From a virus (lineage: Duplodnaviria > Heunggongvirae > Uroviricota > Caudoviricetes), in IMG/VR virus record IMGVR_UViG_3300032307_000691: 64,000 bases of DNA; one strand, given 5' to 3'. Each line of letters begins with the position of its first letter. Positions within the stretch are counted from its first letter, which is position 1. The position numbers and the translations under genes were made by a program. Shown here one piece after another: positions 1 through 14,397 of this stretch. The notes beneath the pieces were generated by a model. It was not told the DNA's origin and did not search any database. It worked only from the letters and a program-made list of their open reading frames with translations.

Positions 1-165
1 AAGATTATTGGAATCTCATGGGACGGTAACATTATGAGTGAAGATATGGAAGGTAAGGAGATATACCTGAGATATCGGGATGTATCCTTAGAGAACTTAG
101 ATATGATGTTAGTATACCTTCGACGGGGAGAATTTTCAAAATCAGGGCTAACACTGTCAATTTAG
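1..165 (+). CDS. hypothetical protein, C-terminal fragment (gene begins upstream of window)
   Basis: Open frame from window edge to TAG at 163-165; the stop lies inside the first TTAGTTTGGCAA motif. Confidence 0.35.
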   Translation, partial: KIIGISWDGNIMSEDMEGKEIYLRYRDVSLENLDMMLVYLRRGEFSKSGLTLSI

Positions 166-173
166 TTTGGCAA
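162..173 (+). promoter_or_regulatory. TTAGTTTGGCAA junction motif, copy 1
   Basis: Exact 12-mer; contains TAnnTTTG (TAGTTTGG); 27 nt upstream of ATG at 200. Confidence 0.5.
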
Positions 174-199
174 TTTTATAAACAGTTAATTTTTAAATC

Positions 200-391
200 A
201 TGAAAAGAAATCAAATTTTAATTACGGTAATTGCTTGGGCAATGCAAGTGTTCTTATTCTGTCAAATCCCTGCGGATTTCACAACCAACACACTCTTGGC
301 ATTCATATGTATGGGGTTATTTTTCCTCGGGTGGTTACCATACTACATCTACTTCACGAAACAGAACCTGAAGGAAACAGGGGAGAATTAG
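200..391 (+). CDS. small membrane protein (63 aa, two hydrophobic segments)
   Basis: ORF track; ATG start; hydrophobic stretches; preceded by motif copy 1. Confidence 0.5.
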   Translation: MKRNQILITVIAWAMQVFLFCQIPADFTTNTLLAFICMGLFFLGWLPYYIYFTKQNLKETGEN

Positions 392-399
392 TTTGGCAA
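388..399 (+). promoter_or_regulatory. TTAGTTTGGCAA junction motif, copy 2
   Basis: Exact 12-mer overlapping stop TAG of 200..391. Confidence 0.5.
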
Positions 400-414
400 A
401 AAAATATTCTAGTA

Positions 415-433
415 TTTGTTTGGATATTCCAAA
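415..433 (+). promoter_or_regulatory. TTTGGATATTCCAAA box (plus-strand copy of the GAATATTC-type motif)
   Basis: tttgtttggatattccaaa; same core as the boxes upstream of minus-strand genes; 38 nt before ATG 472. Confidence 0.4.
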
Positions 434-471
434 TCAAATGAGTAATTTCGAACAACTAAACTTTTATAACT

Positions 472-1068
472 ATGACAAAATTTAAATTAGGTACTCAGGT
501 CGTTGTATCTGACCCTTGTTACACCATCCCTACTTGGTGTCAAATCATTGTAGAGAATGTTCTACCCGGTTACTATGAACCCCATGTCAAGAAAACTGAT
601 TTGGGAGATTGGGGTAATCGTATCGGAGCTCTACTGGCAATCCACGAGGATTACATAGGTAAGGAAGATGAATTGAATTTAACTTGGGTTGACCACGCTG
701 GTGAAGTTGGTGTGGATTCAGGTCAAGCTGGTATCTTCTCAAGAGAATCTTATCGAAACGATTCCATCACGGACCGTATTGGTTTGGGAGAAGGTGATAT
801 ATCTTTCTTCAAGGATTTCCCAAATGATGAGGAGGGACAGAAATGGTATACCCATATGGCGTCCCGTACACTTGGTGTATCACATTGGGGGATGTATGAC
901 GAGGGTGTAGTTTCATCATCAGGTATTGGGGACGGAGGATATGACCTCTATGTTCTTACCACAGAAGATGGGGTGGTAGTTGGTTTTTGTATCGATTACC
1001 TCATCGATGATGAAGGATTTATGTTCGATTTTTATATGGACCCATTAATTGTAACAGAACAGAAATGA
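472..1068 (+). CDS. hypothetical protein (198 aa)
   Basis: ORF track; ATG start; ATGA overlap with next gene. Confidence 0.6.
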   Translation: MTKFKLGTQVVVSDPCYTIPTWCQIIVENVLPGYYEPHVKKTDLGDWGNRIGALLAIHEDYIGKEDELNLTWVDHAGEVGVDSGQAGIFSRESYRNDSITDRIGLGEGDISFFKDFPNDEEGQKWYTHMASRTLGVSHWGMYDEGVVSSSGIGDGGYDLYVLTTEDGVVVGFCIDYLIDDEGFMFDFYMDPLIVTEQK

Positions 1069-1358
1069 GAAAAATAGTTTTCCCCCTAAGTGTGATGGTG
1101 ATGGGATTGATGTCATGTCAGTCCCACACATCCTTAGTTCAGGTTTCAGATTACACTGTAATGAAACAGGACTCAACAACATTATTCATTAAGGATTGTG
1201 AATTCGGTCGAACCATTTATAATTCTTGGCAATCAGGTGGTCCATATGTCCCCACGAAAACCAAAGTAGTTTTGGTGGATACCACTGAGTTCAAGAATTT
1301 GTGTGGCAAAGCGGAACCTCACAAGAGTTACCTCCCTCAGGTGACGACGAATCCGTAA
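1065..1358 (+). CDS. putative lipoprotein (97 aa)
   Basis: N-terminal signal with lipobox-like LMSC; ORF track. Confidence 0.5.
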   Translation: MRKIVFPLSVMVMGLMSCQSHTSLVQVSDYTVMKQDSTTLFIKDCEFGRTIYNSWQSGGPYVPTKTKVVLVDTTEFKNLCGKAEPHKSYLPQVTTNP

Positions 1359-1359
1359 A

Positions 1360-1371
1360 TTAGTTTGGCAA
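1360..1371 (+). promoter_or_regulatory. TTAGTTTGGCAA junction motif, copy 3
   Basis: Exact 12-mer directly after stop TAA of 1065..1358 and abutting ATG at 1371. Confidence 0.5.
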
Positions 1372-1814
1372 TGGAAACAAATGAACATGTAGTAACTCTT
1401 CAACCATCTCAGTGGATTAATGCCGGATGGTTCATCCTCCCTGTAGTTGCGGGTTACGTATACCTACCACTTGGTGGAGTCGCAGCTGTGGTAGCTCTAT
1501 ACAAATATTTGGAGGTGGCCACATGGAAGTACAACTTAAACATGAGGACCATAGAAGAAAAGAAAGGAGTCTTCAGTGTCTCTACTGAAGAGATTCAATA
1601 TTATCGAATCAAATCCATCATGGTAGATGAACCGTTATGGATGAGAATCTTTGGATTATCTATTGTACGTGTTGTGTCATCAGAACAGTACAAACCAAAT
1701 CTAGTTCTTTATGCAATCTCCAACGGGGAGTATGTTAAGAATCTACTTAGTGAACATGCATATGAGTGGAGGAAAGAACTTGGTATCCGTGATTACGACA
1801 TCTTTAATTCTTAA
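1371..1814 (+). CDS. hypothetical membrane protein
   Basis: ORF track 1365..1814 begins at TTG inside the motif; first ATG is at 1371; hydrophobic N-terminus. Confidence 0.55.
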   Translation: METNEHVVTLQPSQWINAGWFILPVVAGYVYLPLGGVAAVVALYKYLEVATWKYNLNMRTIEEKKGVFSVSTEEIQYYRIKSIMVDEPLWMRIFGLSIVRVVSSEQYKPNLVLYAISNGEYVKNLLSEHAYEWRKELGIRDYDIFNS

Positions 1815-1817
1815 GCA

Positions 1818-1991
1818 ATGGCAAGTTTCGAAAAAGTAGGTATTGACAAAAGTATCCTCCATGGATGGGTGAAAGCTCAGATGGAGAAGGTAACTTCAGA
1901 AGACGCAAAGGAAGTACTTGACGCTCTCTTTGAAGATTTCTATCTTGAGGAGGTCGATGAAACTCAGGACGGAGTCCCACTGTTCATTTAG
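1818..1991 (+). CDS. small acidic protein (57 aa), not in ORF track
   Basis: ATG at 1818 (MASFEKVGID...); stop TAG 1989-1991 falls inside motif copy 4. Confidence 0.35.
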   Translation: MASFEKVGIDKSILHGWVKAQMEKVTSEDAKEVLDALFEDFYLEEVDETQDGVPLFI

Positions 1992-1999
1992 TTTGGCAA
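1988..1999 (+). promoter_or_regulatory. TTAGTTTGGCAA junction motif, copy 4
   Basis: Exact 12-mer. Confidence 0.5.
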
Positions 2000-2039
2000 A
2001 TTAAGGGTTTACCTTCAGGTGACCCCGGTCATCCCGATT

Positions 2040-2050
2040 TTGCTTGGCAA
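2040..2050 (+). promoter_or_regulatory. TTGCTTGGCAA degenerate motif copy
   Basis: Variant lacking the TA; upstream of 2131 gene. Confidence 0.3.
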
Positions 2051-2110
2051 ATCGTTCTTTGAAATATTTCTCACAGATATTTGGAATTGTGGGTATTTCT
2101 TGTTATATTT

Positions 2111-2127
2111 TATATATAAATATATAT
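2111..2127 (+). promoter_or_regulatory. TATATATAAATATATAT box (T4-late-like TATAAATA core)
   Basis: AT box 4 nt upstream of ATG 2131. Confidence 0.35.
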
Positions 2128-2130
2128 TAT

Positions 2131-2331
2131 ATGGCAACTAAGAAAACAACCACAAGCAAAGTGACCCGTACTCCGGTTACCACCTATGTACCGGTGTCAC
2201 ATCACATTTACCATGACGGTACCTCGTACCGTGTACGTGTAAGTGTTAACGGAACTCGCTACAGCCAGAACTTCTCTAGTAAGAAGAAAGCAATGGCGTT
2301 CCGTAAGAGTTTGTTGTCCCCGACGGTATAA
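2131..2331 (+). CDS. small DNA-binding protein, AP2/Arm-type-like (66 aa)
   Basis: YRVRVSVNGTRYSQNFSSKKKAMAFRK resembles AP2/integrase-arm DNA-binding fold; internal ATG (MATKK) of ORF 2044..2331. Confidence 0.45.
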   Translation: MATKKTTTSKVTRTPVTTYVPVSHHIYHDGTSYRVRVSVNGTRYSQNFSSKKKAMAFRKSLLSPTV

Positions 2332-2355
2332 TATACCGAACAACTAATTCACCCA

Positions 2356-2394
2356 AGGACCTGTGAGAAATACTCATGGGTCCTTTTTATTTTC
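2356..2394 (+). terminator. rho-independent terminator
   Basis: aaggacctgtgag...ctcatgggtcctt hairpin followed by TTTTTATTTT. Confidence 0.55.
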
Positions 2395-2440
2395 GGGGGT
2401 TCACCTCCGACGGGACCTGAGATGGTAGAATTAGTTTGGC

Positions 2441-2452
2441 AAAATCGATGTT
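2441..2452 (+). promoter_or_regulatory. TTAGTTTGGCAA junction motif, copy 5
   Basis: Exact 12-mer. Confidence 0.5.
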
Positions 2453-2488
2453 CAACCATCGTTGTTCCAACAACCTTCGGGGGGAGAT

Positions 2489-2500
2489 TTAGTTTGGCAA
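2489..2500 (+). promoter_or_regulatory. TTAGTTTGGCAA junction motif, copy 6
   Basis: Exact 12-mer, 16 nt upstream of ATG 2516. Confidence 0.5.
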
Positions 2501-2515
2501 AAAGTATTTATCTAT

Positions 2516-3316
2516 ATGAAGCACAAAATGTATGACATAGTATCCGAAGCGGTTAAGGGGGAAGATAACATCAAGAAACTTAAAGAGATGATATCTTATC
2601 TAGTGGATTACAAAAGAAAACAAACCGACACATATAGATTAAGAACCTCAGTACTTGCTGAAAGAAGTGAAGGTTCGGATAATGGTGAACCATTCAAGGA
2701 AGGACCGTTGGTCCTGATGGGTATAGATTTATTCCAACCTGATTTGAACCTCATCAATGGGGTGTTAAAAGATTTGGGTCAAGATATCCAATCCAAAGGT
2801 TACGGGGATATGGAATGTGCGTTCTCCATACATGAAATCATGGTAGAGGTCGGAGGGGTTAAAGTAGATGTGATGACCCTTCTTCCAGCAAACATTAAGA
2901 ATGACCTTAAATATGAACACCCCACACTTCAGGAGGTTCTGTTAGGGGATAATATATTCGAACTAAATAACGATGTATTACCTAAGGTTTCAGAATCACT
3001 CTCCGAGTGGATTGTTAAAATCAAAAAGAAAGGGGTCATCGGTTACGAAGCGTTAAAGAGGGGTACAATTAATGGGGTGTCATACACCCTGTCCCCGAGA
3101 AGGGGTGAAACAGAAGTGACCCCTGAAATTCATGTTACCTTCGGTAAATTAAATCCGGGTCAACAAATCACCCCTAAGATGGTGTACCCCATAATTCATG
3201 TTCGTATTACGTCGGTATCCGACAGAGATAAGTTGTACGAAACCATGGATAAAATCACCGACAAGTACTATAAGATTACCGGTGGTAAAATGGAAATCAG
3301 TACCGGTTTAAGTTAA
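2516..3316 (+). CDS. hypothetical protein (266 aa)
   Basis: ORF 2462..3316 trimmed to first ATG after motif copy 6 (MKHKMYD...). Confidence 0.55.
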   Translation: MKHKMYDIVSEAVKGEDNIKKLKEMISYLVDYKRKQTDTYRLRTSVLAERSEGSDNGEPFKEGPLVLMGIDLFQPDLNLINGVLKDLGQDIQSKGYGDMECAFSIHEIMVEVGGVKVDVMTLLPANIKNDLKYEHPTLQEVLLGDNIFELNNDVLPKVSESLSEWIVKIKKKGVIGYEALKRGTINGVSYTLSPRRGETEVTPEIHVTFGKLNPGQQITPKMVYPIIHVRITSVSDRDKLYETMDKITDKYYKITGGKMEISTGLS

Positions 3317-3344
3317 GAATATAACATATATATTTATATATACA

Positions 3345-3372
3345 CCCTGTCATACGACGGGGTTTTTTTATT
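3345..3372 (+). terminator. rho-independent terminator
   Basis: ccctgtcatacgacgggg hairpin followed by TTTTTTTATTTT. Confidence 0.55.
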
Positions 3373-3611
3373 TTATAACGTTATAAACCTGATACATTTC
3401 CAAAAAAAATAAAATAGTGTTCGTGATTCACACACAGGACAATTCCCGTGGTAGTGTCACAAAGTGGGGAATAGTGGGAGAATCTGGTTTTGTAATACGC
3501 CCAGCTGGAAATATAAAGAAAATATCCGTATATTAGTATATATTTTTCACTACGACAAAAAATGTTCAGATAGTGGGGTTAAAATCGGGGGTTTTTTACC
3601 ATTAATTTGTA

Positions 3612-3806
3612 TTACATATCGGTCGGGGGTTCTTCGAACCCAACCGACGAGTAACTCATAACGGAGGGTAAACCGCTGTACTGACAAATTTCTTCTTCCC
3701 TCTTTTTAACCAGTAGTTCCTTTATATGGGGGTCAAAGTAAACACCATTATCTTCCATATCGGATAGAGGTCGGTGGAGCATGTATTTTGGATTTTCCAT
3801 GACCAT
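3612..3806 (-). CDS. hypothetical protein (64 aa)
   Basis: ORF track; first gene of the long minus-strand block. Confidence 0.35.
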   Translation of the reverse strand: MVMENPKYMLHRPLSDMEDNGVYFDPHIKELLVKKREEEICQYSGLPSVMSYSSVGFEEPPTDM

Positions 3807-3814
3807 ATAACAAA

Positions 3815-4141
3815 TTAAACTACAAAAGGTTCATCACAGTTCGGACATTCTGTAAGGGTGAGTAACTTATTCTTTCTAAACGACCATCCTTCCACCATGG
3901 GTAGTTCCTGTGGGGAGAGTTTTGAATATCCATCCATACATAATACTTCTCCATCTATATCATAGAACCTTCCCTTATATCTGGTTACTATATGGTTTTT
4001 CTCTTTGGAGATATATGGGGTACATCCTTTATACATCTTCTTTAATAAGAGGTGGAATCTATAGCAACCTCCTTCTGTATAGATGTATCTTATGTACCCA
4101 TCTGTATTTCTCAATTCTTCTATGAATGATTCTATATCCAT
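3815..4141 (-). CDS. hypothetical protein (108 aa)
   Basis: ORF track. Confidence 0.5.
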   Translation of the reverse strand: MDIESFIEELRNTDGYIRYIYTEGGCYRFHLLLKKMYKGCTPYISKEKNHIVTRYKGRFYDIDGEVLCMDGYSKLSPQELPMVEGWSFRKNKLLTLTECPNCDEPFVV

Positions 4142-4162
4142 CTTATACTTTATGGTATTATA

Positions 4163-4375
4163 CTATATGGTATTATTCTCTATAGTATCTTCATTATTAT
4201 TTAATCCTCTTACTCTTATATAATCCATTGGAATTTCTCTTCTTAATGACTGTCTTAATCTATTTGTGAACCATTCAACATCATTGGGATTTATTTCTCC
4301 TAAATTGATATTATATGCATTACCTTCTACAGTATCATCATTGATATATCCCCTGCCGAATTTGATATGTTTCAT
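4163..4375 (-). CDS. hypothetical protein (70 aa)
   Basis: ORF track. Confidence 0.4.
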   Translation of the reverse strand: MKHIKFGRGYINDDTVEGNAYNINLGEINPNDVEWFTNRLRQSLRREIPMDYIRVRGLNNNEDTIENNTI

Positions 4376-4387
4376 ATATGGGTTATT

Positions 4388-5776
4388 TTATATTAATTCA
4401 AGTTGTATTTGCATTGTTTCTTGTTTCCACCCGTTTTTTATTAATCTTTTTCTTACCAACCAAACCACATTCGTGGATACACCCGTTATTTTACGAATAT
4501 CCTTATTTTGTACATTTTTTTTCAATAATTTAATTACTTCGGGGTACTTTTCTTCATAATACTCCATAGTTTTCATATATTCTTTATATCTTAGTAATGG
4601 AGATAATAATTCCTCCCATTTTTCATTTTTTATTCTACAATAATATCCATTTGCATTTTCGTAAAAATCTTTTAATGTTTTATATTCGGATACCTTGTTT
4701 TTACATTGTTCATATGTGTATTTATTCTTTCCCCCACCCAACGAACCACCTTTATTACCGTTTAATATCTTCCAACCATTTTCTTTATATTGACGAATAT
4801 AACGACGTTCTTCATGAGATGCATCCAACATTACCAATTTATCGGTTAAAATCTTAAAATCGAATGATAACCCGGTACTCTCATGATATTCCCTAACTTT
4901 GGATGTTGAACCTTCACACAGGTGGTCGGTTTTTCTTTTCTCAGGATTGTAACTCAAACCAACATAAACAGAACCATCAGGGAATTCAAAAGAGTAAACG
5001 TATCTATAACCCAATGTTGGTAATTTTACCATATGGTCAAGCAACTCATACCACCCATTTCTATAAATGGTCGTTTTAGGTACGTGTGGTAATTCCTTCC
5101 TATTATTATATTTTAACGCACATTCTTTGCATCTCTCATATGTCCAATAACCCGATTTATTCTGTCTCCGTTCAAGAGTATCTAATAAATCTTTCCACCC
5201 ATGTCTGCGAATGTTATCATATAAACTGTAATCCTTCTCCCTTAACTCATAAAGAGATTTATATTTGGTAATCAATTCTTTACATTCATCATATGTTCTT
5301 GATGGAGTTGGTTTTTTATAGTTTGGAAAAAATTCCTCCAACCACCCATTTTGATTACAAACATTATACACGGGTCGATTATTTTCAAAAAGTTCACCGG
5401 GGGATTTGTACATCCCTGAAATACTCTGACATTTTTCATATGTAAATGATTCGTAATCCGCCCTTTCTTTAGGGGTTTTCCGATTCGGATAAAAATCATT
5501 TAACCAACCATATTTCCTAATTGCCTTAGATGCCCCCGGATAATCTCTACTTAGATATGTTATATTTTTATATTTTTTAGATATCTCACTACATTTATCA
5601 TATGACCAAATATCGGGCTCATCGTGATTTGGGTATTTAACAGGGAATAGGTCATCTAAAAGATTATTCTTTTTCGCAAACTTAAATGCTCCACTCCATT
5701 TATTCTGGAGTTCACTACGATGTTTACAGGTTTTCGAAACCTTTAACAACTCCTCGTATGTCCACGTTATCGGCAT
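4388..5776 (-). CDS. GIY-YIG nuclease-domain protein with tandem ~45-aa repeats
   Basis: YVYSFEFPDGSVYVGLS...KRKTDH...NGWKILN matches GIY-YIG; five N-terminal and one C-terminal repeat of the type W/Y-x-Y-E-x-C...KYK...NGW(L/Y)E(E/L)(F/L). Confidence 0.6.
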   Translation of the reverse strand: MPITWTYEELLKVSKTCKHRSELQNKWSGAFKFAKKNNLLDDLFPVKYPNHDEPDIWSYDKCSEISKKYKNITYLSRDYPGASKAIRKYGWLNDFYPNRKTPKERADYESFTYEKCQSISGMYKSPGELFENNRPVYNVCNQNGWLEEFFPNYKKPTPSRTYDECKELITKYKSLYELREKDYSLYDNIRRHGWKDLLDTLERRQNKSGYWTYERCKECALKYNNRKELPHVPKTTIYRNGWYELLDHMVKLPTLGYRYVYSFEFPDGSVYVGLSYNPEKRKTDHLCEGSTSKVREYHESTGLSFDFKILTDKLVMLDASHEERRYIRQYKENGWKILNGNKGGSLGGGKNKYTYEQCKNKVSEYKTLKDFYENANGYYCRIKNEKWEELLSPLLRYKEYMKTMEYYEEKYPEVIKLLKKNVQNKDIRKITGVSTNVVWLVRKRLIKNGWKQETMQIQLELI

Positions 5777-6141
5777 TAGAAGTGATAGTTGAATATCTTA
5801 CAGTATGGATTAAGGTTAGATAAATCAGGGAAGGTTACATCTCCAATACTATTATCATTTATATGGGATATATGGAGTTCAGTGAAATGTTCACAATACT
5901 TCTCATATGTTTTCTTCCCCCCGATGCACCAATCCACGTTTAGATTGATATTATCCCTTATATCAACAATTAGTTCCCTGTCCTTTAGTGTGGGTAGAGA
6001 TTGATATGTCCTATATCCCACCAGAAGTTTGGAATTCAAGGTTAATTTCCTGAAATGTATCAAATCATCAGGGTTCCTCCATAAAAGGTCCTCCCCGATT
6101 CCAATAAACCCGAGATTGTTTGTTGCGATGATTGCTTTCAT
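5776..6141 (-). CDS. folA: dihydrofolate reductase (compact, 121 aa)
   Basis: IIATNNLGFIGIGEDLLWRNPDDLIHFRKLTLNSKLLVGYRTYQSLP...CIGGKKTYEKY aligns with the DHFR N-terminal and GGxxxY motifs. Confidence 0.8.
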   Translation of the reverse strand: MKAIIATNNLGFIGIGEDLLWRNPDDLIHFRKLTLNSKLLVGYRTYQSLPTLKDRELIVDIRDNINLNVDWCIGGKKTYEKYCEHFTELHISHINDNSIGDVTFPDLSNLNPYCKIFNYHF

Positions 6142-6518
6142 TTCTTTTTGGATAGTTCCACCTTAATTCCTTTTATAAGGTATGAAGCGGTCATATAGTT
6201 TGTTGCCAATGGAATATTATATACATTACAGATACGTAATAACATATTCACATCCACCTGATGGGGATGAACATCCAATGGGTCAATAAAGAATAGAACG
6301 GCAGAGATTTCCCCGTCAGCAATCATTGAAGCAATCTGAGCATCACCACCCAACGGACCGGATTTTAAACAGTTTACATCCAATCCCGCATGTTCAATGT
6401 GTTTACCGGTAGTTCCCGTGGCAATTACATCCACCGTTTTGAAGAACTCCAACCTCTTCATGATGAACGCAACCATGTCCGCCTTCTTCCCATCATGAGC
6501 AATTACCGCAATTTTCAT
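6138..6518 (-). CDS. mgsA: methylglyoxal synthase
   Basis: MKIAVIAHDGKK...ATGTTG...SGPLGGDAQIASMIADGEISAVLFFIDPLDVHPHQVD...YNIPLATN aligns along the whole length with E. coli MgsA; catalytic His/Asp/His/Asp positions conserved; start trimmed to the internal ATG of ORF 6138..6566. Confidence 0.8.
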   Translation of the reverse strand: MKIAVIAHDGKKADMVAFIMKRLEFFKTVDVIATGTTGKHIEHAGLDVNCLKSGPLGGDAQIASMIADGEISAVLFFIDPLDVHPHQVDVNMLLRICNVYNIPLATNYMTASYLIKGIKVELSKKK

Positions 6519-6519
6519 A

Positions 6520-6741
6520 TTATTTATTTTTCCTCCATCCCCACGGTTCAGGTGCATTACTAGCAAGTGACGCTACATCGACATCTAATGTTTTATCATA
6601 AACAGCAACGTAAGAGTTTCCTCTTTGGGTATCAAGAGTTCTCTCAACTTCCTTTTCGGTATAGAGGGGTTCCAACTCAACCTCACCGTTCTTCCAAGAT
6701 TTCCATACATCGAAATCTTTTAGTTCTTCTAATGTAATCAT
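6520..6741 (-). CDS. hypothetical protein (73 aa)
   Basis: ORF track. Confidence 0.4.
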   Translation of the reverse strand: MITLEELKDFDVWKSWKNGEVELEPLYTEKEVERTLDTQRGNSYVAVYDKTLDVDVASLASNAPEPWGWRKNK

Positions 6742-7085
6742 ATTTCAATGTATGGATTGTCCTTTACAATCTCTTTAACATAGTTGTTTAGTTCTTCCTC
6801 AGTTTTAAAATAAACCGTTGATGAATAAGTTCTATCGTTCATATAGATGTCCACATGTGGTTGATAATAAACCTTATCATCTTCTATGTATTGATTTGGT
6901 TCATTGAAATCCTCGATGAAACATCTGAATTCACCCCAATGATATAGTGCGGGTTTCTTCTCGTATACCGGAATAAAACCATATTTGAATCCAACACGCT
7001 TTCGTTTCGTACCAATTCTGCTATTACGAACCTCGTGTTTGGGTTGTACCGATAATCGTGTGATGTTGTTCTTAAATAAAATCAT
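6738..7085 (-). CDS. hypothetical protein (115 aa)
   Basis: ORF track; ATGA overlap. Confidence 0.5.
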   Translation of the reverse strand: MILFKNNITRLSVQPKHEVRNSRIGTKRKRVGFKYGFIPVYEKKPALYHWGEFRCFIEDFNEPNQYIEDDKVYYQPHVDIYMNDRTYSSTVYFKTEEELNNYVKEIVKDNPYIEI

Positions 7086-7215
7086 TTCTTCTTTTTGGTG
7101 TTAAAGGTTTTCATGTTCTGTTTTATTCGCTCTCTACTTTCTGCAACCTTTTCAGGTGGTATTATCTCGTACTTTCCCTTGTTTATGATTTCAAAATTTA
7201 TTTTAACTCGTTTAC

Positions 7216-7434
7216 TCATAATCGTTGGTTCAGTTGTAAAGAATTACTTACAACTCTCATTTGTCGCACAATAAACACCATTAATGCCGCAATAAGGATA
7301 AACCCTGTTAAGGGCCACAGTAACGCAATTCCTCTTTGAGCAGGGTCATCCTCAATACCATCATGTGTCGGACCTACAACCCAATGGGTTACAAAGAACC
7401 CTATGATGTAGATTAGTAAAATAATTAGTATCAT
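7216..7434 (-). CDS. small membrane protein (72 aa)
   Basis: Two hydrophobic helices; ORF track. Confidence 0.45.
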   Translation of the reverse strand: MILIILLIYIIGFFVTHWVVGPTHDGIEDDPAQRGIALLWPLTGFILIAALMVFIVRQMRVVSNSLQLNQRL

Positions 7435-7440
7435 ACCTTC

Positions 7441-7719
7441 TTATTCTTCTAAATCTTCAACATCAATTTCATCCCCGACATTCACAAATAAATCTGCTTT
7501 ACATGAGTAAGCAATTTTATCTGCCAGTTCAACCAATTCGGCGTCCTCAACCTCATATGATTTCAAAAGTTCTCCGTCGTTAATACGGATATATGTTTCT
7601 GAACCTTCCCATCCTTCGTAGTAACGGACGGTGATGTCTCTTTCTCCGTCATTGACGGTAACTTCTATGGTCTCTGCCGACCAAATAACCCTTTGGGATT
7701 CTTTAACTGTTAGTTTCAT
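7441..7719 (-). CDS. hypothetical protein
   Basis: ORF 7441..7806 trimmed to an internal ATG to avoid overlap with 7733..8275. Confidence 0.4.
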   Translation of the reverse strand: MKLTVKESQRVIWSAETIEVTVNDGERDITVRYYEGWEGSETYIRINDGELLKSYEVEDAELVELADKIAYSCKADLFVNVGDEIDVEDLEE

Positions 7720-7732
7720 TTTGTTTTTGTTT

Positions 7733-8275
7733 TTAAAAAAGATAAAAGAAACATCCTTTGGACCAATAATCTCCGTATTCATCCAACTCCAAAGATTGTC
7801 CGTCATATTTTAAATCAGTAATGACTTCAACGTACTCATGAACATCAACACGCTTGAATGAAAGTTTCTCAGGGTCAAACTCATCTTCGATATTCAATTC
7901 ATATTCCTTGAAGGTACCTTTCACGTAATGTTCAATCACAAGAATGTTTTCCTTCTCAATGAATGTGTAATCACCTTCATCTTCTCCCTCGTTCATATAG
8001 AAATCATTATCTGACTTCCACACAACTTCCTCATTCTCATCCAAAACTTGGATGTGGTAACTCTCAGGAGAACAGTACGAACCTGTGTAGGTTTCATCCG
8101 CGTAATCCCAACTGTCAACCTCCAACAAATCTGTTAAATCGTCGAGGTCAATATCCGATTCGGGAGAATCGTTATCAACTCCCCATTCCTGAAGTTGTTG
8201 TTTTTGTTCTTCATTGACCGGATGGATATAGATATCCGCGCCACGTCCACTGAAAATAAGTTTATATTTTTTCAT
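7733..8275 (-). CDS. acidic hypothetical protein (180 aa)
   Basis: ORF track; D/E-rich. Confidence 0.5.
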   Translation of the reverse strand: MKKYKLIFSGRGADIYIHPVNEEQKQQLQEWGVDNDSPESDIDLDDLTDLLEVDSWDYADETYTGSYCSPESYHIQVLDENEEVVWKSDNDFYMNEGEDEGDYTFIEKENILVIEHYVKGTFKEYELNIEDEFDPEKLSFKRVDVHEYVEVITDLKYDGQSLELDEYGDYWSKGCFFYLF

Positions 8276-8277
8276 GA

Positions 8278-8451
8278 TTAGTTTTCTTTAAAGAGTGAAA
8301 GGTACATTAAGTATAGTGCCAGTATTCCCATACCAACAAACATACTCATAACAACAAGGGTGTATAATTCGAACCATAGTAAGATTGGTCCGACCATTAA
8401 CCCCAACGATAATGCCCCAATAGCATTAATTCTTGATTCCCACTTTTCCAT
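8278..8451 (-). CDS. small membrane protein
   Basis: ORF track start is TTG; first ATG gives MEKWESRI...; two TM helices. Confidence 0.4.
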   Translation of the reverse strand: MEKWESRINAIGALSLGLMVGPILLWFELYTLVVMSMFVGMGILALYLMYLSLFKEN

Positions 8452-8475
8452 GATGTTGAACAAATATACGAAATG

Positions 8476-8497
8476 TTTTTGAATATTCCAAAAAATT
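8476..8497 (-). promoter_or_regulatory. GAATATTC-type promoter-like box (minus strand reads AATTTTTTGGAATATTCAAAAA)
   Basis: Followed on the minus strand by TATATTTG (TAnnTTTG) just before the start of 8278..8463. Confidence 0.5.
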
Positions 8498-8849
8498 ATG
8501 AATCCAAATATACAACTGATGCTCTAATAAACATTCCTGATTGGTCCATCGGCATTTGTTCTATGTTTCCATTATCCGATGAATATATTGTCCCGTCTTG
8601 GGTTGAGATTGCTTGATAAAAGAAAACTCGGTTACCAATGTTTGAACTAAAAAAATCTGCAATTGTTGATTGTAACCTAAACAACTCAACCGGAACCCTT
8701 CGTTCAACTATTTGTCCCATATATTCGTTACATGTGTAATAACAAACAATCGGTCGATTGACGAGGGTAATCCCTGACGCTAATCGACCGGTAACATCCC
8801 CAAATACGGGACCATTATCATAACCTCTACCAAATTTAAATTCTCTCAC
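8496..8849 (-). CDS. hypothetical protein (117 aa)
   Basis: ORF track. Confidence 0.5.
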   Translation of the reverse strand: MREFKFGRGYDNGPVFGDVTGRLASGITLVNRPIVCYYTCNEYMGQIVERRVPVELFRLQSTIADFFSSNIGNRVFFYQAISTQDGTIYSSDNGNIEQMPMDQSGMFIRASVVYLDS

Positions 8850-8852
8850 AAA

Positions 8853-9500
8853 TTAGTTAACTGCCTGATATTGTGAAGTACTAATAAAATTTTTATTTTC
8901 TATTTCTAAATCAAAAGAGTGGACATCACCAAATTCCTTTGTTATGAAGTAATTTTTATATAACATTCGTGGTAGTAATGCCCCAATTGCCTTATTATAT
9001 TCTCCACCTTTAGTGATTCTAAAATTAGAATGGGTAATTAAGTTACGTAAAATTGGTGATTCGCCAATCCAAATTTCTCGTTTAAAGAAGAGAATTGTTA
9101 TGTAATAATCTGAAGTAGTGGCAATAATACCTGACTTGTGTCCTTTATGTTCAATTTCCATAAAAAGATTACCAGTTTCGTTACCGGGAGAAATAAGTAA
9201 GTCGGTTTTTACCTCAAATCTTTTTTCTATACCATTCTTAGTTGCCCTTATATCGAATTTTATATATTCTGTTTTGTCAATATGTGTCATTTCAGAAGAT
9301 ACCACTTTCCATCCTCTTTGTTTAAGGAATTGGGTGATTATGTTCTCACCAATCTTACCCACTTTATTATCTAATTTGTGGAAATCGTAATCCTCTTTAG
9401 TATCTCTTTTTCTTTTTACTTCTAAAATGAAGAAATAATCTTTTTGACTTATCTTAAAACTATATTTTTTCATATAAATAAGTACCCATTTATTAATCAA
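8853..9500 (-). CDS. hypothetical protein (215 aa)
   Basis: ORF track; possible PD-(D/E)xK-like D...EVK segment, not verifiable by eye. Confidence 0.5.
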   Translation of the reverse strand: MINKWVLIYMKKYSFKISQKDYFFILEVKRKRDTKEDYDFHKLDNKVGKIGENIITQFLKQRGWKVVSSEMTHIDKTEYIKFDIRATKNGIEKRFEVKTDLLISPGNETGNLFMEIEHKGHKSGIIATTSDYYITILFFKREIWIGESPILRNLITHSNFRITKGGEYNKAIGALLPRMLYKNYFITKEFGDVHSFDLEIENKNFISTSQYQAVN

Positions 9501-9501
9501 G

Positions 9502-9699
9502 TTATTTAGTTTTCTCTTCGATGTATGCTAAAGCTTCGTCTCTATCATTTGCTGGAAATGGGTAAACCACTTGGGCAACAAAAGGACTTTCTTCTGCTTC
9601 ATCGGTATCTCTTTTATCCCAATACCTTTTAGCTTGTAAGGTTCCTGATACATGTCGATAACCCCACCATAGATTTTTAACTTCTTCTGTTTGTGTCAT
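9502..9699 (-). CDS. hypothetical protein (65 aa)
   Basis: ORF track. Confidence 0.4.
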   Translation of the reverse strand: MTQTEEVKNLWWGYRHVSGTLQAKRYWDKRDTDEAEESPFVAQVVYPFPANDRDEALAYIEEKTK

Positions 9700-10031
9700 A
9701 ACACTTCAGTTAAAACTCTCCACTCTTTTAATAGGTTGCCGTCGAATATTACTTCAACAGGAATACCCTTTAGTTTATCAACACTATCAACTTTTGCATC
9801 TTTTAAAAGTTTTGATAAAAAACGAACCGTTTCACCAATGTTATTGGTTCTATCTTCCTCGGTCCACTTAGTGTGTTCAGAGCATTTAATCATTTCAGGG
9901 TCCCATGTACCCTTGAAGTCACCAACACCCCAACTACCGTTGCCAAGTGTAACCGATAAACCAATACAAGCGTCTTGGTATCCGCCGTGTCCGAATCTTA
10001 CTGATTCGATTTTTCCTAATTTCTTTTCCAT
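9696..10031 (-). CDS. hypothetical protein (111 aa)
   Basis: ORF track. Confidence 0.5.
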   Translation of the reverse strand: MEKKLGKIESVRFGHGGYQDACIGLSVTLGNGSWGVGDFKGTWDPEMIKCSEHTKWTEEDRTNNIGETVRFLSKLLKDAKVDSVDKLKGIPVEVIFDGNLLKEWRVLTEVL

Positions 10032-10037
10032 ATTTTT

Positions 10038-10259
10038 TTATTGAGGACTAATACCACATTTATGTTTATGTTCAACATACCACATGATTCTAAATGTACC
10101 TAACACAAAGAAGTATGTGTCGAATTCATTAATATCATCGGTTGATTTACAAATACCTGTGTGATATGCAGGTACTTTGGTTTGTACCGTCTTTGCACTC
10201 TTCGGGAATTTGTTAAATGCAATACTATGTCGTTTAGTTAATTTGAATGATTTATACAT
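10038..10259 (-). CDS. hypothetical protein (73 aa)
   Basis: ORF track. Confidence 0.4.
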   Translation of the reverse strand: MYKSFKLTKRHSIAFNKFPKSAKTVQTKVPAYHTGICKSTDDINEFDTYFFVLGTFRIMWYVEHKHKCGISPQ

Positions 10260-10491
10260 AATTTATCTTGTTATTAAAAGTGCGGCAATTATTATGATGA
10301 TGGCAACGATTGACCAAAACGCAACAGTTTCACTGAATTGTACTTGGTCCTTTCTTCGTCCTTGTCTGTCTTTTCTGCTCATAGGTCGTCAATTTTATCC
10401 ATTATTACGGTTATCAACCAGAGGATTACAAGAATAATTCCTCCGAAAATCATGAATCCCCAAAACACATTTCCCATCTCACAATTGATTT

Positions 10492-11190
10492 TTAGTTGTT
10501 AATCTTTACATCGAACTTTTCCACCTCATTTGCATTAACCATGTTACCCATGATTAGAATAAACATTTTTTCATTTGGAATGCCAAAGAATGTTTTAATA
10601 TCAGAATCAGTAGAATAAACATCCAATTCTTCGACACCAACATGTTTTAGGTTGTCAACCACTTCTCTCATTTCACCAAGAGATAGATGGTTACCATGAA
10701 TTTTTATGTAATGATTTTCAGGATAACGGTATTCACCTGTTTCTTCTTCACCACACTCGATTTTACCTTCACCATCACATTCATCACATTCGTTAATGTG
10801 ACCACAGCAATTACATTCTACTTCACCTTCACCATCACATTCATCACAATCCCTGTACTTTTTATCATACTCGGGCATCATCTTGATGTCATCAAAAATC
10901 TTTTCGACATCGGAAATCAAAATTTTACCAAATCGACCCATACCTTTTTCGTAAATCCTTTCGTATTCCTCCATGATTTTTAGTGCATTGGCACCGTCAC
11001 CTTTTGAGAAATCATGAACATTTTCACGATTAATAAACTCGGGGTCATAAACCCACAATAATTTGTGGGAGTTGGTTGATGCTAACCAACCGTTGGGATA
11101 ACAAATAGGTTTGAAGATTGGGTCTCTCCAATCATTATCTGAAGCCCACGACCTAACAAAGGCTTCGTATTTTGGATTATCCTTTATCAT
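10492..11190 (-). CDS. protein with DnaJ-type CxxCxGxG zinc-finger repeats
   Basis: CDECDGEGEVECNCCGHINECDECDGEGKIECGEEETGE: two CxxCxGxG units. Confidence 0.55.
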   Translation of the reverse strand: MIKDNPKYEAFVRSWASDNDWRDPIFKPICYPNGWLASTNSHKLLWVYDPEFINRENVHDFSKGDGANALKIMEEYERIYEKGMGRFGKILISDVEKIFDDIKMMPEYDKKYRDCDECDGEGEVECNCCGHINECDECDGEGKIECGEEETGEYRYPENHYIKIHGNHLSLGEMREVVDNLKHVGVEELDVYSTDSDIKTFFGIPNEKMFILIMGNMVNANEVEKFDVKINN

Positions 11191-11749
11191 CTACTTTCTG
11201 ACTAATTTGTTCAACAATATTTTTCATAAACGACATTACTTGTTCGTTTGGTTCTTTACCATTTTCCATATCTTGGATTTCTTTTTGGAACTTCTCACTA
11301 ACAGTTTCCAACTTACCGGTCTTAACTCCGTCAAAGAAATCAATTACAATTTGTGGTGCTTTAAATTCAATGTAAGCATATGTTGAATCAAAGTCATCAT
11401 CATAGTTTTGAATGTACAATGGATGTTCTGATAGTAATTCGAAAACATAAGAATACCAATCACGATTACCTCCACCATTTCTTGTATACAAAACGATTTT
11501 AGGTTCACTACCCTCTTCATTTTGAAAAAAGATATCACGGAATCTACCGGTTGGGTAGTATCTATTCTTCTTACAGTCATTCATCAGAGCAATACCATCT
11601 TCGCAATCCCAATTTGGTTCACCCCAAGTGTCAGTGATTTTTTCATAACGTTCCTCCCAATTCTCAGGAACATTCTTATCCAATTCCAATGCGCCGATTA
11701 GAAGTGGTGTTGCCGGATTTACTCCGAACAATGTATTGTACAAACTCAT
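11177..11749 (-). CDS. hypothetical protein (190 aa)
   Basis: ORF track. Confidence 0.5.
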   Translation of the reverse strand: MSLYNTLFGVNPATPLLIGALELDKNVPENWEERYEKITDTWGEPNWDCEDGIALMNDCKKNRYYPTGRFRDIFFQNEEGSEPKIVLYTRNGGGNRDWYSYVFELLSEHPLYIQNYDDDFDSTYAYIEFKAPQIVIDFFDGVKTGKLETVSEKFQKEIQDMENGKEPNEQVMSFMKNIVEQISQKVDDKG

Positions 11750-12009
11750 TTTAGTTCTTTTAACTTATTGGTCAGTTCTTCAGCCAAAATATCTTTTCGG
11801 GTGAGGGTTGGTTTCTCGACAACATTAACTGTACTTCCACACCACGTGTTAATATATTCGTGTGGTAAGAATGTTGAGCCCGAGAAGTAAACTTCTTGTG
11901 GTGTTTCTTCGATTGGTTCCATATTTTCTAATAGTTTTTTAGTTGCTCCCATGTTTCTTATTGTTTTGTAAAGTTGGTACGGTGCGAATGATTCGAATAA
12001 CTTTTTCAT
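11746..12009 (-). CDS. hypothetical protein (87 aa)
   Basis: ORF track. Confidence 0.45.
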   Translation of the reverse strand: MKKLFESFAPYQLYKTIRNMGATKKLLENMEPIEETPQEVYFSGSTFLPHEYINTWCGSTVNVVEKPTLTRKDILAEELTNKLKELK

Positions 12010-12335
12010 ATGTTGGTTACTTTATCAGTTACCCAAAGTTCTCTCGGCATACCAACATTACTCATCATCACCACATAAAAATAAATGCATTGGCGATTAA
12101 CACTGTCGGCGTTGGCAAATGAACCGTACAAATCATTTTTAACCAATGATTGAACGAAGGAACCACCGGGGTAACCGACGTTCCATTTGGTACATAGTAT
12201 ACTAACGGCAATGGATTTAACGTGGTCCATTGATTCAGTGTCTCCCAATATGTTTAATGGGAGTAGTTGACGATTCTCAAAAAGGAACTTCGTAACAGCT
12301 CCTTCGACAGCGGTGATTTGTTCATCTATGTTCAT
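12006..12335 (-). CDS. hypothetical protein (109 aa)
   Basis: ORF track; ATG confirmed at 12333-12335. Confidence 0.5.
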   Translation of the reverse strand: MNIDEQITAVEGAVTKFLFENRQLLPLNILGDTESMDHVKSIAVSILCTKWNVGYPGGSFVQSLVKNDLYGSFANADSVNRQCIYFYVVMMSNVGMPRELWVTDKVTNI

Positions 12336-12351
12336 GATACAATAATAAGAA

Positions 12352-13874: not shown

Positions 13875-13916
13875 TTGATACGTTATTAAAAATTCAACGC
13901 ATCAAATCTAAAAAAA

Positions 13917-14396: not shown

Positions 14397-14397
14397 A

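What the first reader, a model, noticed from the sequence alone, without database searches (positions are those of the whole stretch)
162..2500. Array of six exact TTAGTTTGGCAA(A) 12-mers plus one variant at every plus-strand gene junction in the first 2.5 kb
Exact copies sit at 162, 388, 1360, 1988, 2441 and 2489, with a variant at 2040. Each lies 0-70 nt before a start codon, and in at least four cases the TAG or TAA stop of the upstream gene lies inside or beside it. The core TAGTTTGG fits the Bacteroidetes sigma-A -7 consensus TAnnTTTG. This is consistent with a tandem early-promoter array in front of small, probably host-takeover, genes. Copy 3 abuts the ATG (1371) too closely for a standard leader. 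The motif could instead be an RNA processing, antitermination or regulator-binding site.
Basis: seen in the sequence. Interest (0 to 1): 0.6.

Follow-up and report, generated by a model that had tools for sequence, protein, structure and literature searches.

The report
Regulatory 12-mer punctuating phage gene cassettes
A 12-14 base sequence repeated at gene boundaries in the early-gene block of a giant, uncultured Bacteroidota phage is a conserved, lineage-specific control site, most likely where a phage regulator docks rather than the promoter box first proposed, and gene cassettes are gained and lost at it.

Summary
The repeat is real. TTAGTTTGGCAA occurs six times exactly on the + strand in the first 2.5 kb (0.03 expected) and nowhere else in the 64 kb. 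The window lies in a 318.6-kb metagenomic jumbo-phage scaffold, and the array continues at least 9.5 kb upstream.

The full element is R-A-W-TTAGTTTGGCAA. It stays about 97% identical at orthologous junctions in five relatives whose flanks are only about 70% identical.

It is not the Bacteroidota sigma-A -7 box. Genuine TTTG-N17-22-TAnnTTTG promoters lie elsewhere in the same array. Across the family the core TTGGCAA sits 6-7, 15-17, 27-29 or 38 bp upstream of their -33 element, which is helical phasing (p about 1e-5).

Sister clades carry their own versions (TTAGTGGGGCAA, TTACTGGGG), often as hairpin-forming inverted pairs. One orthologous junction holds each clade's own version. Three gene-sized insertions or deletions end exactly at motif copies.

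Best reading (0.45): the recognition site of a co-evolving, probably phage-encoded DNA-binding factor. It would act as an RNA-polymerase-phased upstream site at promoters and resemble a mycobacteriophage "stoperator" at cistron junctions, and it doubles as a recombination breakpoint like the T4 PeSL cassettes.

Main rival (0.25): a self-sufficient promoter. The motif fits the flavobacterial TAnnTTG (SM5) box.

No transcription start data exist, and the binding factor is unidentified.

The parts
160..173 (+). Motif copy 1 (AT-TTAGTTTGGCAA), stand-alone. Its TAG (163-165) ends the upstream 87-aa ORF. The ATG of the 63-aa gene lies 26 nt downstream.
   Evidence: orthologous exact copies in REL, L124 and L132
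386..399 (+). Motif copy 2. Its TAG (389-391) ends ORF 200-391. It lies 19 nt upstream of an imperfect sigma-A-type promoter.
419..450 (+). Imperfect host-type promoter TTTGGATATTCCAAATCAAATGAGTAATTTCG (-7 box TAATTTCG), 21 nt before the ATG at 472.
   Evidence: G 9922, d=19; conserved in REL and L132
1358..1371 (+). Motif copy 3, stand-alone at a cistron junction. A TAA stop lies at 1356-1358. The last A of the motif is the A of the start codon of the bPH_2 membrane protein gene (1371-1814). This overlap is kept in four relatives.
1986..1999 (+). Motif copy 4. Its TAG (1989-1991) ends ORF 1818-1991. An ~80-aa gene cassette present in REL, L125 and L129 is missing here.
2039..2050 (+). Variant copy TTTGCTTGGCAA, 29 nt upstream of an imperfect sigma-A-type promoter.
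2080..2111 (+). Imperfect host-type promoter TTTGGAATTGTGGGTATTTCTTGTTATATTTT, 19 nt before the ATG at 2131 (66-aa conserved basic protein).
2355..2385 (+). Intrinsic terminator (13-bp stem followed by TTTTTATTTT), conserved in five relatives. Motif copy 5 follows about 46 nt later.
2429..2442 (+). Motif copy 5, the distal copy of a pair. It is changed to TTTGTTTGGCAA in L125 and L129.
2487..2500 (+). Motif copy 6, the proximal copy, exact in all five relatives. It lies 15 nt before the ATG at 2516 (266-aa gene). No TAnnTTTG lies between the terminator and this ATG.
3344..3363 (+). Intrinsic terminator closing the + strand array. Beyond it the genes run on the minus strand and the motif is absent.

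Best explanation
R-A-W-TTAGTTTGGCAA is a cis-regulatory DNA site read by a sequence-specific factor that co-evolves with it. The factor is most likely a phage-encoded DNA-binding protein that recognises an asymmetric ~14-bp site, and it governs the roughly 17-kb array of small early-type gene cassettes.

Where a copy lies next to a host sigma-A promoter, it sits on one face of the helix, centred near -50, -60, -70 or -80. A bound factor there could touch RNA polymerase and either activate it or trap it.

The copies in the window are mostly stand-alone, full-consensus sites at cistron junctions inside long transcription units, oriented with transcription. There the bound factor would act like the 'stoperators' of cluster A mycobacteriophages, as an orientation-dependent block that lets the whole block be switched off together.

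Because the same 12-15 bp recur at every cassette boundary, the copies also serve as recombination breakpoints for gain and loss of cassettes.

Shown: conservation, restriction to the array, phasing, clade-specific turnover, and breakpoints at motif copies. Inferred: protein binding, its effect on RNA polymerase, and the direction of regulation.
For: 1. Purifying selection on exactly this element. In 28 orthologous comparisons, positions -2 and 0 to 11 are about 97% identical while the flanks are about 65-75% identical. No second conserved block lies within +/-40 nt. Exact copies occupy the same junctions in L122/L123, L124, L125, L129 and L132, whose proteins are 67-86% identical to the window's.

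2. Restriction to one gene block. The first 13.5 kb hold 12 + and 2 - exact copies. The adjoining ~60 kb hold none, although that region uses the same sigma-A-type promoters.

3. Helical phasing. In 75 non-identical sites from nine loci, the distance from TTGGCAA to the -33 TTTG is 6-7 (9 sites), 15-17 (46), 19 (2), 27-29 (14), 38 (3) or 60 (1), with nothing in between. This includes spacers that are not A-tracts. After collapsing to 15 clusters, Rayleigh R is 0.87-0.89 at a period of 10.5-10.7 bp, p about 1e-5.

4. Sites beside a promoter tolerate a degenerate 5' half (ATTG, TTTG or TTAGA variants). The full AWTTAGT half is present in 10/34 such sites, against 27/52 stand-alone sites. That is the pattern expected for cooperative versus unaided binding.

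5. Co-evolution. Sister clades use TTAGTGGGGCAA (L145, 20 + and 22 - copies) or TTACTGGG(G) (L152, 35 + and 28 -). Others keep only TTGGCAA (L138 and L144, 16 + and 0 -). The junction before the conserved 'MGRVNKT' gene carries each clade's own version.

6. Several of the element's locations are probably not transcribed, lying between a strong terminator and the next promoter. That points to action on DNA.

7. Inverted pairs and palindromes in sister clades, and at L001 920, 2025/2152 and 5984/6026, do not fit a directional promoter.

8. Orientation follows transcription. The minus-strand copy at L001 2152 precedes a conserved minus-strand peptide gene by 16 nt. The same correlation is described for stoperators in PMC9283540.

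9. Three gene-sized insertions or deletions between close relatives have both ends in motif copies.
Against: No candidate binding protein was identified. The 73.5 kb I could read is 23% of the genome, and it shows only a stand-alone DnaA-domain-IV HTH protein and a small basic beta-beta-beta-alpha protein. Neither is linked to the motif.

Inverted pairs in sister clades have very variable loops (4-66 nt). That suits a hairpin better than a fixed dimer geometry.

The 266-aa gene (2516-3316) lies between two strong terminators. Its only conserved upstream elements are two motif copies, so either the terminator leaks or the motif itself promotes transcription.

The stand-alone copies keep TA-nn-TTG, a known alternative flavobacterial promoter box, at a distance from the ATG typical of promoters.

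Phasing could also arise from contact with RNA polymerase itself rather than with a separate factor.
Confidence: 0.45

Rival explanations
1. The motif is itself a promoter. One version is a host-RNA-polymerase promoter of the alternative flavobacterial class SM5 (TAnnTTGY at -12 to -5). The other is the compact promoter of a phage-encoded sigma factor or RNA polymerase. Transcription would start about 2 nt after the motif. This gives 12-25 nt leaders, or leaderless mRNAs where the ATG abuts the motif.
For: T2-A3-n-n-T6-T7-G8 of the motif matches TAnnTTG, the SM5 box. That box was validated by mutagenesis in Flavobacterium psychrophilum (PMC9723704).

Stand-alone copies lie 13-26 nt before an ATG. 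This includes a minus-strand copy before a minus-strand gene. In other cases the ATG starts 0-3 nt from the motif end.

The 266-aa gene sits between two terminators with only motif copies upstream. The proximal copy is exact in all five relatives, while the distal one has lost the TA in two of them.

No perfect TAnnTTTG precedes any gene from L001 8196 to 12845, the part of the array that contains the window's copies.

Clade-specific motifs are also what co-evolving polymerase and promoter pairs look like.
Against: Helical phasing upstream of sigma-A promoters has no rationale for an independent tandem promoter.

Many conserved copies lack the TA (ATTG, TTTG and TAAG variants). The family-wide core is TTGGCAA.

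The orthologous stand-alone junction site in L134 and L158 is TTTGCTTGGCAA, and in L152 it is TTTACTGGGATT. Neither is box-like.

Sister clades carry dozens of convergent inverted pairs.

The last box position is G where SM5 has a pyrimidine, and the invariant GCAA is not explained.

No phage sigma factor or RNA polymerase was seen in 73.5 kb. This is weak evidence, because 77% of the genome was not read.
Confidence: 0.25
2. The motif is primarily a cassette-boundary recombination element or a selfish repeat. It would be the arm of a hairpin-forming intergenic repeat, comparable to REPIN elements, MITEs or integron attC sites. Its spread, homogenisation and recombination would explain its uniformity. 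Any regulatory effect would be secondary.
For: Sister clades, and the upstream part of this clade's array, carry inverted pairs with variable loops. These resemble imperfect palindromic repeats. The pairs fold significantly better than shuffles (z = -3.1 and -2.4).

Three gene-sized insertions or deletions end exactly in motif copies. That parallels PeSL-mediated shuffling in T4-like phages (PMC2839356, PMC4122927).

Each genome has its own homogeneous version of the element.
Against: Single arms at orthologous positions stay identical across five diverged genomes while their flanks diverge by about 30%. That indicates selection on the sequence itself.

Phasing with promoters and orientation with transcription are not expected for a selfish repeat.

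The integron core sites RYYYAAC and GTTRRRY are absent. No integrase, transposase or RAYT was seen in the readable 73.5 kb. Other insertions or deletions end in promoter repeats instead, as ordinary homologous recombination between any repeats would produce.
Confidence: 0.12
3. The motif works in RNA, as a processing site, a translational coupling signal or a small-RNA target at cistron junctions of polycistronic early mRNAs.
For: The stand-alone copies are inside transcription units, overlap stop codons and lie 0-26 nt before start codons. Plus-strand RNA carrying the minus-strand copies (L001 2152, 6026) would contain a complementary 'anti-motif'.
Against: Many copies lie between a terminator and the next promoter, so they are probably not transcribed, and they are phased with the promoter. 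The distance to the ATG varies from -1 to more than 130 nt. No Rfam family matches. The double copy in the window has no significant fold (z = -1.2).
Confidence: 0.05
4. One reading: each copy is the canonical sigma-A -7 box (TAnnTTTG) of a standard Bacteroidota promoter.
For: There is a one-mismatch resemblance in two registers. The distance from the motif's TTTG to the ATG is 17-20 nt at three copies, similar to the 19-26 nt seen at genuine promoters here.
Against: None of the six copies matches TAnnTTTG, and none has a -33 TTTG. Genuine promoters with both elements occur in the same array and downstream of motif copies. The invariant GGCAA and A(-2) lie outside the consensus.
Confidence: 0.03

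Closest known systems
Operator and 'stoperator' sites of cluster A mycobacteriophages (L5 gp71 or TipsytheTRex repressor; PMC9283540)
   Same: Both are asymmetric 12-14 bp sites present in more than 20 copies. Both lie in promoter regions and in short intergenic spaces that overlap stop and start codons. In both, orientation correlates with the direction of transcription and the motif version is specific to the clade.
   Different: Here the copies are confined to one ~17-kb early block, not spread across the genome. Promoter-proximal copies lie upstream of the -33 element and are helically phased, rather than overlapping the core promoter. Sister clades use inverted pairs. The phage is a ~300-kb Bacteroidota phage with no sign of lysogeny, and no repressor homologue was found.
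PeSL (promoter-early stem-loop) cassettes of T4-like phages (PMC2839356, PMC4122927)
   Same: Both are composite terminator and promoter spacers that flank small variable early genes. In both, insertions or deletions between close relatives end in the repeated regulatory sequence.
   Different: In PeSLs the repeated unit is the stem-loop plus the sigma-70 early promoter itself. Here an extra 14-bp element, distinct from both terminator and promoter, is the most conserved part, and it also occurs alone inside operons.
Upstream activator sites and UP elements phased with the core promoter (class I CAP sites, phi29 p4; from general knowledge)
   Same: The distances to the core promoter are quantised in steps of about 10.5 bp, which places the site on one face of the helix at about -50, -60, -70 or -80.
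   Different: The site is G+C-containing, asymmetric and specific to a phage clade. About half of the copies have no promoter within 60 nt.
Flavobacterial alternative promoter box SM5, TAnnTTGY at -12 to -5 (PMC9723704)
   Same: TA and TTG are separated by 2 nt within the motif, and the distance to the ATG at several stand-alone copies is compatible with a promoter.
   Different: The last position is G, not a pyrimidine. Many conserved copies and all sister-clade versions lack the TA or the TTG. Another 5-6 invariant bases are unexplained.
Integron attC sites and REPIN-type hairpin repeats (from general knowledge)
   Same: Both involve arrays of co-oriented small cassettes whose boundaries carry a host-specific repeat. 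Both include imperfect inverted repeats with variable central parts (here only in sister clades), and cassette gain and loss occurs at the repeat.
   Different: No RYYYAAC or GTTRRRY core is present, the single arm is not palindromic, no integrase or RAYT was seen, and cassettes mostly carry their own promoters and terminators.

Membership tests
Bacteroidota sigma-A promoter (-33 TTTG / -7 TAnnTTTG) | Match to TAnnTTTG at the -7 box | tested here: not met
   TTAGTTTG and TAGTTTGG each have one mismatch at a specified position, so 0 of 6 copies match. Consensus as in PMC9723704.
Bacteroidota sigma-A promoter (-33 TTTG / -7 TAnnTTTG) | -33 TTTG lying 17-22 nt upstream of the -7 box | tested here: not met
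   No TTTG occurs at that distance upstream of any copy. Genuine promoters with both elements occur separately in the array.
Bacteroidota sigma-A promoter (-33 TTTG / -7 TAnnTTTG) | Primary transcript 5' end about 5 nt downstream of the box | not testable with these tools
   No transcriptome exists for this uncultured phage.
Flavobacterial SM5-type promoter (TAnnTTGY) | TA-nn-TTG-Y box | tested here: inconclusive
   TA-GT-TTG is present in all six window copies, but the last base is G, not Y. The TA is absent from many conserved variants and from orthologous sites in sister clades.
Stoperator-type repressor sites (cluster A mycobacteriophages) | Asymmetric site of about 13 bp in many copies, in promoter regions and short intergenic spaces | tested here: met
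   14 exact copies plus about 12 variant copies in 13.5 kb. All lie in intergenic spaces or at gene ends.
Stoperator-type repressor sites (cluster A mycobacteriophages) | Orientation correlated with the direction of transcription | tested here: met
   12 + and 2 - exact copies in a + strand array. One of the minus copies precedes a minus-strand gene. The correlation does not hold in the sister clades L145 and L152, where inverted pairs dominate.
Stoperator-type repressor sites (cluster A mycobacteriophages) | Sites distributed throughout the genome | tested here: not met
   No exact copies in the adjoining ~60 kb. The rest of the genome was not read.
Stoperator-type repressor sites (cluster A mycobacteriophages) | Monomeric two-domain HTH repressor encoded by the phage that binds the site | not tested
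   No homologue is evident in the readable 73.5 kb. Binding cannot be tested with these tools.
PeSL cassettes (T4-like phages) | Terminator stem-loop plus early promoter flanking small variable ORFs | tested here: met
   Eight strong + strand terminators are each followed by motif and promoter.
PeSL cassettes (T4-like phages) | Insertions or deletions between close relatives bounded by the repeated element | tested here: met
   RELF 2593-3253, RELF 15888-16146 and L132 4220-4575 have both ends in motif copies. Two others end in promoter repeats.
Phage-RNA-polymerase or phage-sigma promoter | Strict co-orientation with the genes served | tested here: inconclusive
   Met in this clade. Violated by convergent pairs in L134, L145 and L152, and at L001 5984/6026.
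Phage-RNA-polymerase or phage-sigma promoter | A phage-encoded RNA polymerase or sigma factor | tested here: inconclusive
   None found among 105 ORFs in 73.5 kb.
Sigma-54 promoter | TGGCAC-N5-TTGC (-24 / -12 spacing) | tested here: not met
   No TTGC occurs 5 nt after TGGCAA in any copy.
Integron attC | RYYYAAC and GTTRRRY core sites, and an integron integrase | tested here: not met
   The core sites are absent from the motif and from the paired versions. No integrase was seen in the readable DNA.
Helically phased upstream activator site or UP-like element | Distance to the core promoter quantised with a period of about 10.5 bp | tested here: met
   Distances of 6-7, 15-17, 27-29 and 38 bp. 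R = 0.87-0.89, p about 1e-5, on 15 independent clusters.
Known RNA families (Rfam 15) | Covariance-model match | tested here: not met
   No match at gathering score in the window or L001. Only chance-level hits at E up to 1.

The most novel reading that the evidence does not exclude
The 14-mer, together with its hairpin-forming paired versions in sister clades, is the recombination site of a dedicated gene-cassette system in jumbo phages that resembles an integron. Under this reading a phage recombinase captures, excises and reshuffles small host-takeover genes at these sites. That would explain the cassette-sized insertions and deletions that end in the motif and the concerted, clade-specific evolution of all copies.
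Probability: 0.08. Interest if true: 0.85.

Novelty: new variant of a known kind. Interest (0 to 1): 0.5.

Why it matters
Almost nothing is known about how Bacteroidota jumbo phages time their gene expression. Here a whole uncultured family, with contigs up to 316 kb, shows a readable regulatory grammar:
- host-type -33/-7 promoters;
- a clade-specific 12-14 bp element that is helically phased with those promoters;
- stand-alone copies of the element at cistron junctions;
- cassette exchange at the element.

If a phage factor reads the element, it would be a handle for switching a block of roughly 30 host-takeover genes on or off. It would also be an analogue, in a virus with no detected lysogeny genes, of the stoperator principle so far known from temperate mycobacteriophages. 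The paired motif and factor specificities across clades would form a natural set of orthogonal parts for Bacteroidota genetics. The finding makes testable predictions about transcription starts, protein binding and phase dependence.

Tried and rejected
- DNA search of the phage collection with window 1-3600 found no match.
- Scanning IMG/VR with the 14-mer AATTAGTTTGGCAA gave only single chance hits: 120 loci, each with one copy, except L108 with two copies about 11.7 kb apart. Relatives had to be found through proteins instead.
- A literature search for the sequence itself returned only primer and miRNA coincidences.
- Sigma-54 reading (TGGCA as the -24 element): rejected, because there is no -12 TTGC.
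- The motif's own TTTG as a -33 element with a downstream -7 box: only copy 1 has a weak TAATTTTT at N17, so this is not general.
- A conserved hairpin just upstream of the motif, or a fold across the double copy: no consistent structure, z = -1.2.
- Shared C-terminal peptides of the upstream ORFs (QDG..L.I*): limited to one probable paralogue subfamily, and read in different frames in orthologues, so I did not pursue this.
- The 66-aa protein encoded at 2131-2331 as the reader of the motif. It has a beta-beta-beta-alpha fold (pLDDT 73.6) but no significant PDB match. Its core is nearly invariant across clades that use different motifs, which argues against it.
- Walking further upstream on the source scaffold failed, because the exact protein was not returned by the homologue search. 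Relatives 95% identical in this protein were used instead.
- My first promoter pattern required a -33 TTTG and so missed promoters with a weak -33, for example TACCTTTG before L001 5499. I corrected this by scanning for -7 boxes alone.

Full report
**What is there**

TTAGTTTGGCAA occurs six times exactly on the + strand, at 162, 388, 1360, 1988, 2431 and 2489. Shuffles give 0.03 expected. A variant, TTTGCTTGGCAA, lies at 2039. No exact copy occurs in the remaining 61.5 kb.

The TAG inside the motif ends the ORFs finishing at 165, 391 and 1991. A TAA precedes copy 3, whose last A is the A of the start codon at 1371. Two + strand junctions, 1068/1065 and 1814/1818, have no copy, so 'every junction' is overstated.

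Aligning 27 exact copies from this phage and a relative shows that the element is longer than 12 nt. A at -2 and A/T at -1 are invariant, and -3 is a purine in 26/27. Nothing further within +/-40 nt is strongly conserved.

**Context**

The 198-aa protein of the window is encoded on a 318,562-bp metagenomic scaffold (ENA ERZ28594783). I read 9.5 kb upstream of the window as L001. The array continues there. L001 holds 14 exact copies, two of them on the minus strand, and 32 hits with up to 2 mismatches against 3.0 expected. All lie between genes or at gene 3' ends.

The genes are small and mostly of unknown function: DUF932, DUF4314, DUF1737, L5-gp82-like, bPH_2 and a DUF4241-like protein. From about 3.6 kb onward the genes run on the minus strand. 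They encode nucleotide and NAD metabolism functions.

No RNA polymerase or sigma factor was found among 105 ORFs. No Rfam family matches. No catalogued phage matches the DNA.

**Real host-type promoters are separate from the motif**

TTTG-N17-22-TAnnTTTG, the Bacteroidota sigma-A signature (box at -12 to -5; PMC9723704), occurs 19-26 nt before the ATG of every transcription unit from L001 141 to 7592. It also occurs before many minus-strand genes of the window. The minus-strand promoters lack the motif.

Eight strong + strand intrinsic terminators were found. At six of them a motif copy follows 41-57 nt later.

In the part of the array that includes the window (L001 8196-12845) no perfect -7 box precedes any gene. 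Only two imperfect promoters occur there, at window 419-450 and 2080-2111. Each lies 19-29 nt downstream of a motif copy. The other copies stand alone.

**Relatives and selection**

Five related contigs, whose proteins are 67-86% identical to the window's, carry the exact 12-mer at the same junctions. In 28 orthologous comparisons the motif positions are about 97% identical against about 70% for the immediate flanks. This indicates selection on the 14 bp themselves.

**The wider family**

A search with the DUF932 protein brought in 30 loci from contigs of up to 316 kb. In L138, L144 and their kin the exact 12-mer is gone, but the core TTGGCAA remains at 16 + and 0 - copies. It almost always lies just upstream of a canonical promoter.

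Over 75 non-identical sites the distance from TTGGCAA to the -33 TTTG is 6-7, 15-17, 19, 27-29 or 38 bp, with one outlier at 60 and nothing in between. This holds for spacers that are not A-tracts as well. After collapsing to 15 clusters, the Rayleigh statistic peaks at a period of 10.5-10.7 bp (R = 0.87-0.89, p about 1e-5). The element is therefore helically phased with the promoter and centred near -50, -60, -70 or -80.

Promoter-adjacent copies often have a degenerate 5' half. Stand-alone copies more often keep the full consensus: 27/52 against 10/34.

**Clade-specific versions**

L145 uses TTAGTGGGGCAA, with 20 + and 22 - copies. Nearly all form inverted pairs with 15-66 nt loops, lying between a terminator and the next promoter. 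L152 uses TTACTGGG(G), with 35 + and 28 - copies, as palindromes and as single forward copies at cistron junctions. L134 and L158 pair TTGGCAA arms.

The junction before the conserved 'MGRVNKT' gene carries TTAGTTTGGCAA here, TTTGCTTGGCAA in L134 and L158, TTAGGTTGGCAC in L144, and TTTACTGGGATT in L152. The site is kept while its sequence follows the genome's own version. That is what a co-evolving trans-acting reader predicts.

Relatives 95% identical in the DUF4314 protein show that this clade's array continues at least 3.4 kb further upstream, with both hairpin pairs and phased single copies.

**Recombination**

Three gene-sized insertions or deletions between close relatives have both ends in motif copies: RELF 2593-3253, RELF 15888-16146 and L132 4220-4575. 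The second is an ~80-aa gene that is absent at window copy 4. Others end in promoter repeats. This parallels PeSL-mediated shuffling in T4-like phages.

**Interpretation**

A DNA-level recognition site for a co-evolving factor accounts for most of the evidence:
- the compact footprint;
- restriction to one block of genes;
- phasing with promoters;
- weaker sites where a polymerase could bind cooperatively;
- occurrence in spacers that are probably untranscribed;
- inverted pairs;
- orientation with transcription, including a minus-strand copy 16 nt before a conserved minus-strand peptide gene.

The closest described system is the operator and stoperator network of cluster A mycobacteriophages. 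This element differs from it in being local rather than genome-wide, in lying upstream of and phased with promoters, and in lacking an identified repressor.

**The main rival**

The motif may itself be a promoter. It contains TA-nn-TTG, the flavobacterial SM5 box. Several stand-alone copies lie at promoter-like distances from an ATG. The 266-aa gene at 2516-3316 sits between two conserved terminators with nothing but two motif copies upstream.

Against the rival:
- the phasing;
- the many conserved copies without the TA;
- non-box versions at orthologous sites in sister clades;
- the convergent pairs.

I put the binding-site model at 0.45, the promoter model at 0.25, a primarily recombinational or selfish element at 0.12, an RNA-level signal at 0.05, and the literal sigma-A -7 reading at 0.03.

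**Limits**

Only 23% of the source genome could be read. There are no transcription or binding data. The reader of the motif is unknown. Many of the sites counted for phasing are related by descent, which I mitigated by clustering them.

Noticed in passing
L001 2028-2135 (minus strand; about 7.4 kb upstream of the window): An uncalled 35-aa hydrophobic peptide gene (MIEGILYTCLFFGLIGTLGFMYALHREIKDNENLPN) lies on the minus strand between two inverted motif copies. It is conserved in REL, L134 and L138. Its stop codon lies in the reverse complement of the + copy at 2025.
   Followed up: partly
window 2131-2331 (+): A 66-aa basic protein with a K/T/A/P-rich tail and a nearly invariant core (YVPVSHHIYHDGxSYRVRVSVNG..S.NF.SKK.A..FR) is found in 74 protein clusters. 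The predicted fold is beta-beta-beta-alpha (pLDDT 73.6) and looks nucleic-acid-binding, but there is no significant PDB match.
   Followed up: partly
window 26393-26830 (-): A stand-alone 145-aa protein carries a DnaA domain IV helix-turn-helix (Pfam Bac_DnaA_C, E = 1.4e-19) and keeps the RDHTT motif. Its target is unknown.
   Followed up: no
window 15811-16818 (-): An adenylosuccinate-synthetase homologue (Pfam E = 1e-82) also hits a PHROG family of PurZ-like enzymes. It might indicate a modified purine pathway.
   Followed up: no
window 20130-21650 (-), 46306-47508 (-), 59296-60831 (-), 5776-6141 (-): A large set of auxiliary metabolic genes: nicotinamide phosphoribosyltransferase, thymidylate synthase, a tryptophan-halogenase-like protein and DHFR. 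Pfam also reports a poly(A) polymerase head domain and two 'Swiss Army Knife' RNA-repair HAD domains elsewhere in the window.
   Followed up: no
L138 3365-3580: Three tandem 72-nt repeats each carry a reversed motif-like CCGCCAATCTAATTT. They lie about 140 nt before the first TTGGCAA copy in that locus. Three independent IMG/VR contigs (L137, L143, L159) break exactly here.
   Followed up: partly
L001 920-955; L145, L134 and L165 hairpin loops: The loops of the inverted-pair versions repeatedly contain (C)GTATGACA or its complement. The same string forms the start-codon context (gtATGACA) of many genes in these phages.
   Followed up: no
L146 (e.g. 366-15363), upstream of its promoters: A sister clade without any TTGGCAA carries two tandem TTTAACAAA-like boxes instead, 7 and 18 nt upstream of the -33 element. 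These are the same phased positions as the motif here.
   Followed up: partly
window 4388-5776 (-): A 462-aa protein with a weak GIY-YIG nuclease domain (E = 2e-4) lies close to the boundary between the + array and the minus-strand block.
   Followed up: no
window 1-2000 and relatives: 20-30 nt upstream of many motif copies: A recurring CTCAGG / CCTGAG (CCTNAGG-like) string and GAAGACGACTCCGGAT-like flanks occur before motif copies of non-orthologous junctions. They are read in different frames in orthologues. No explanation found.
   Followed up: partly
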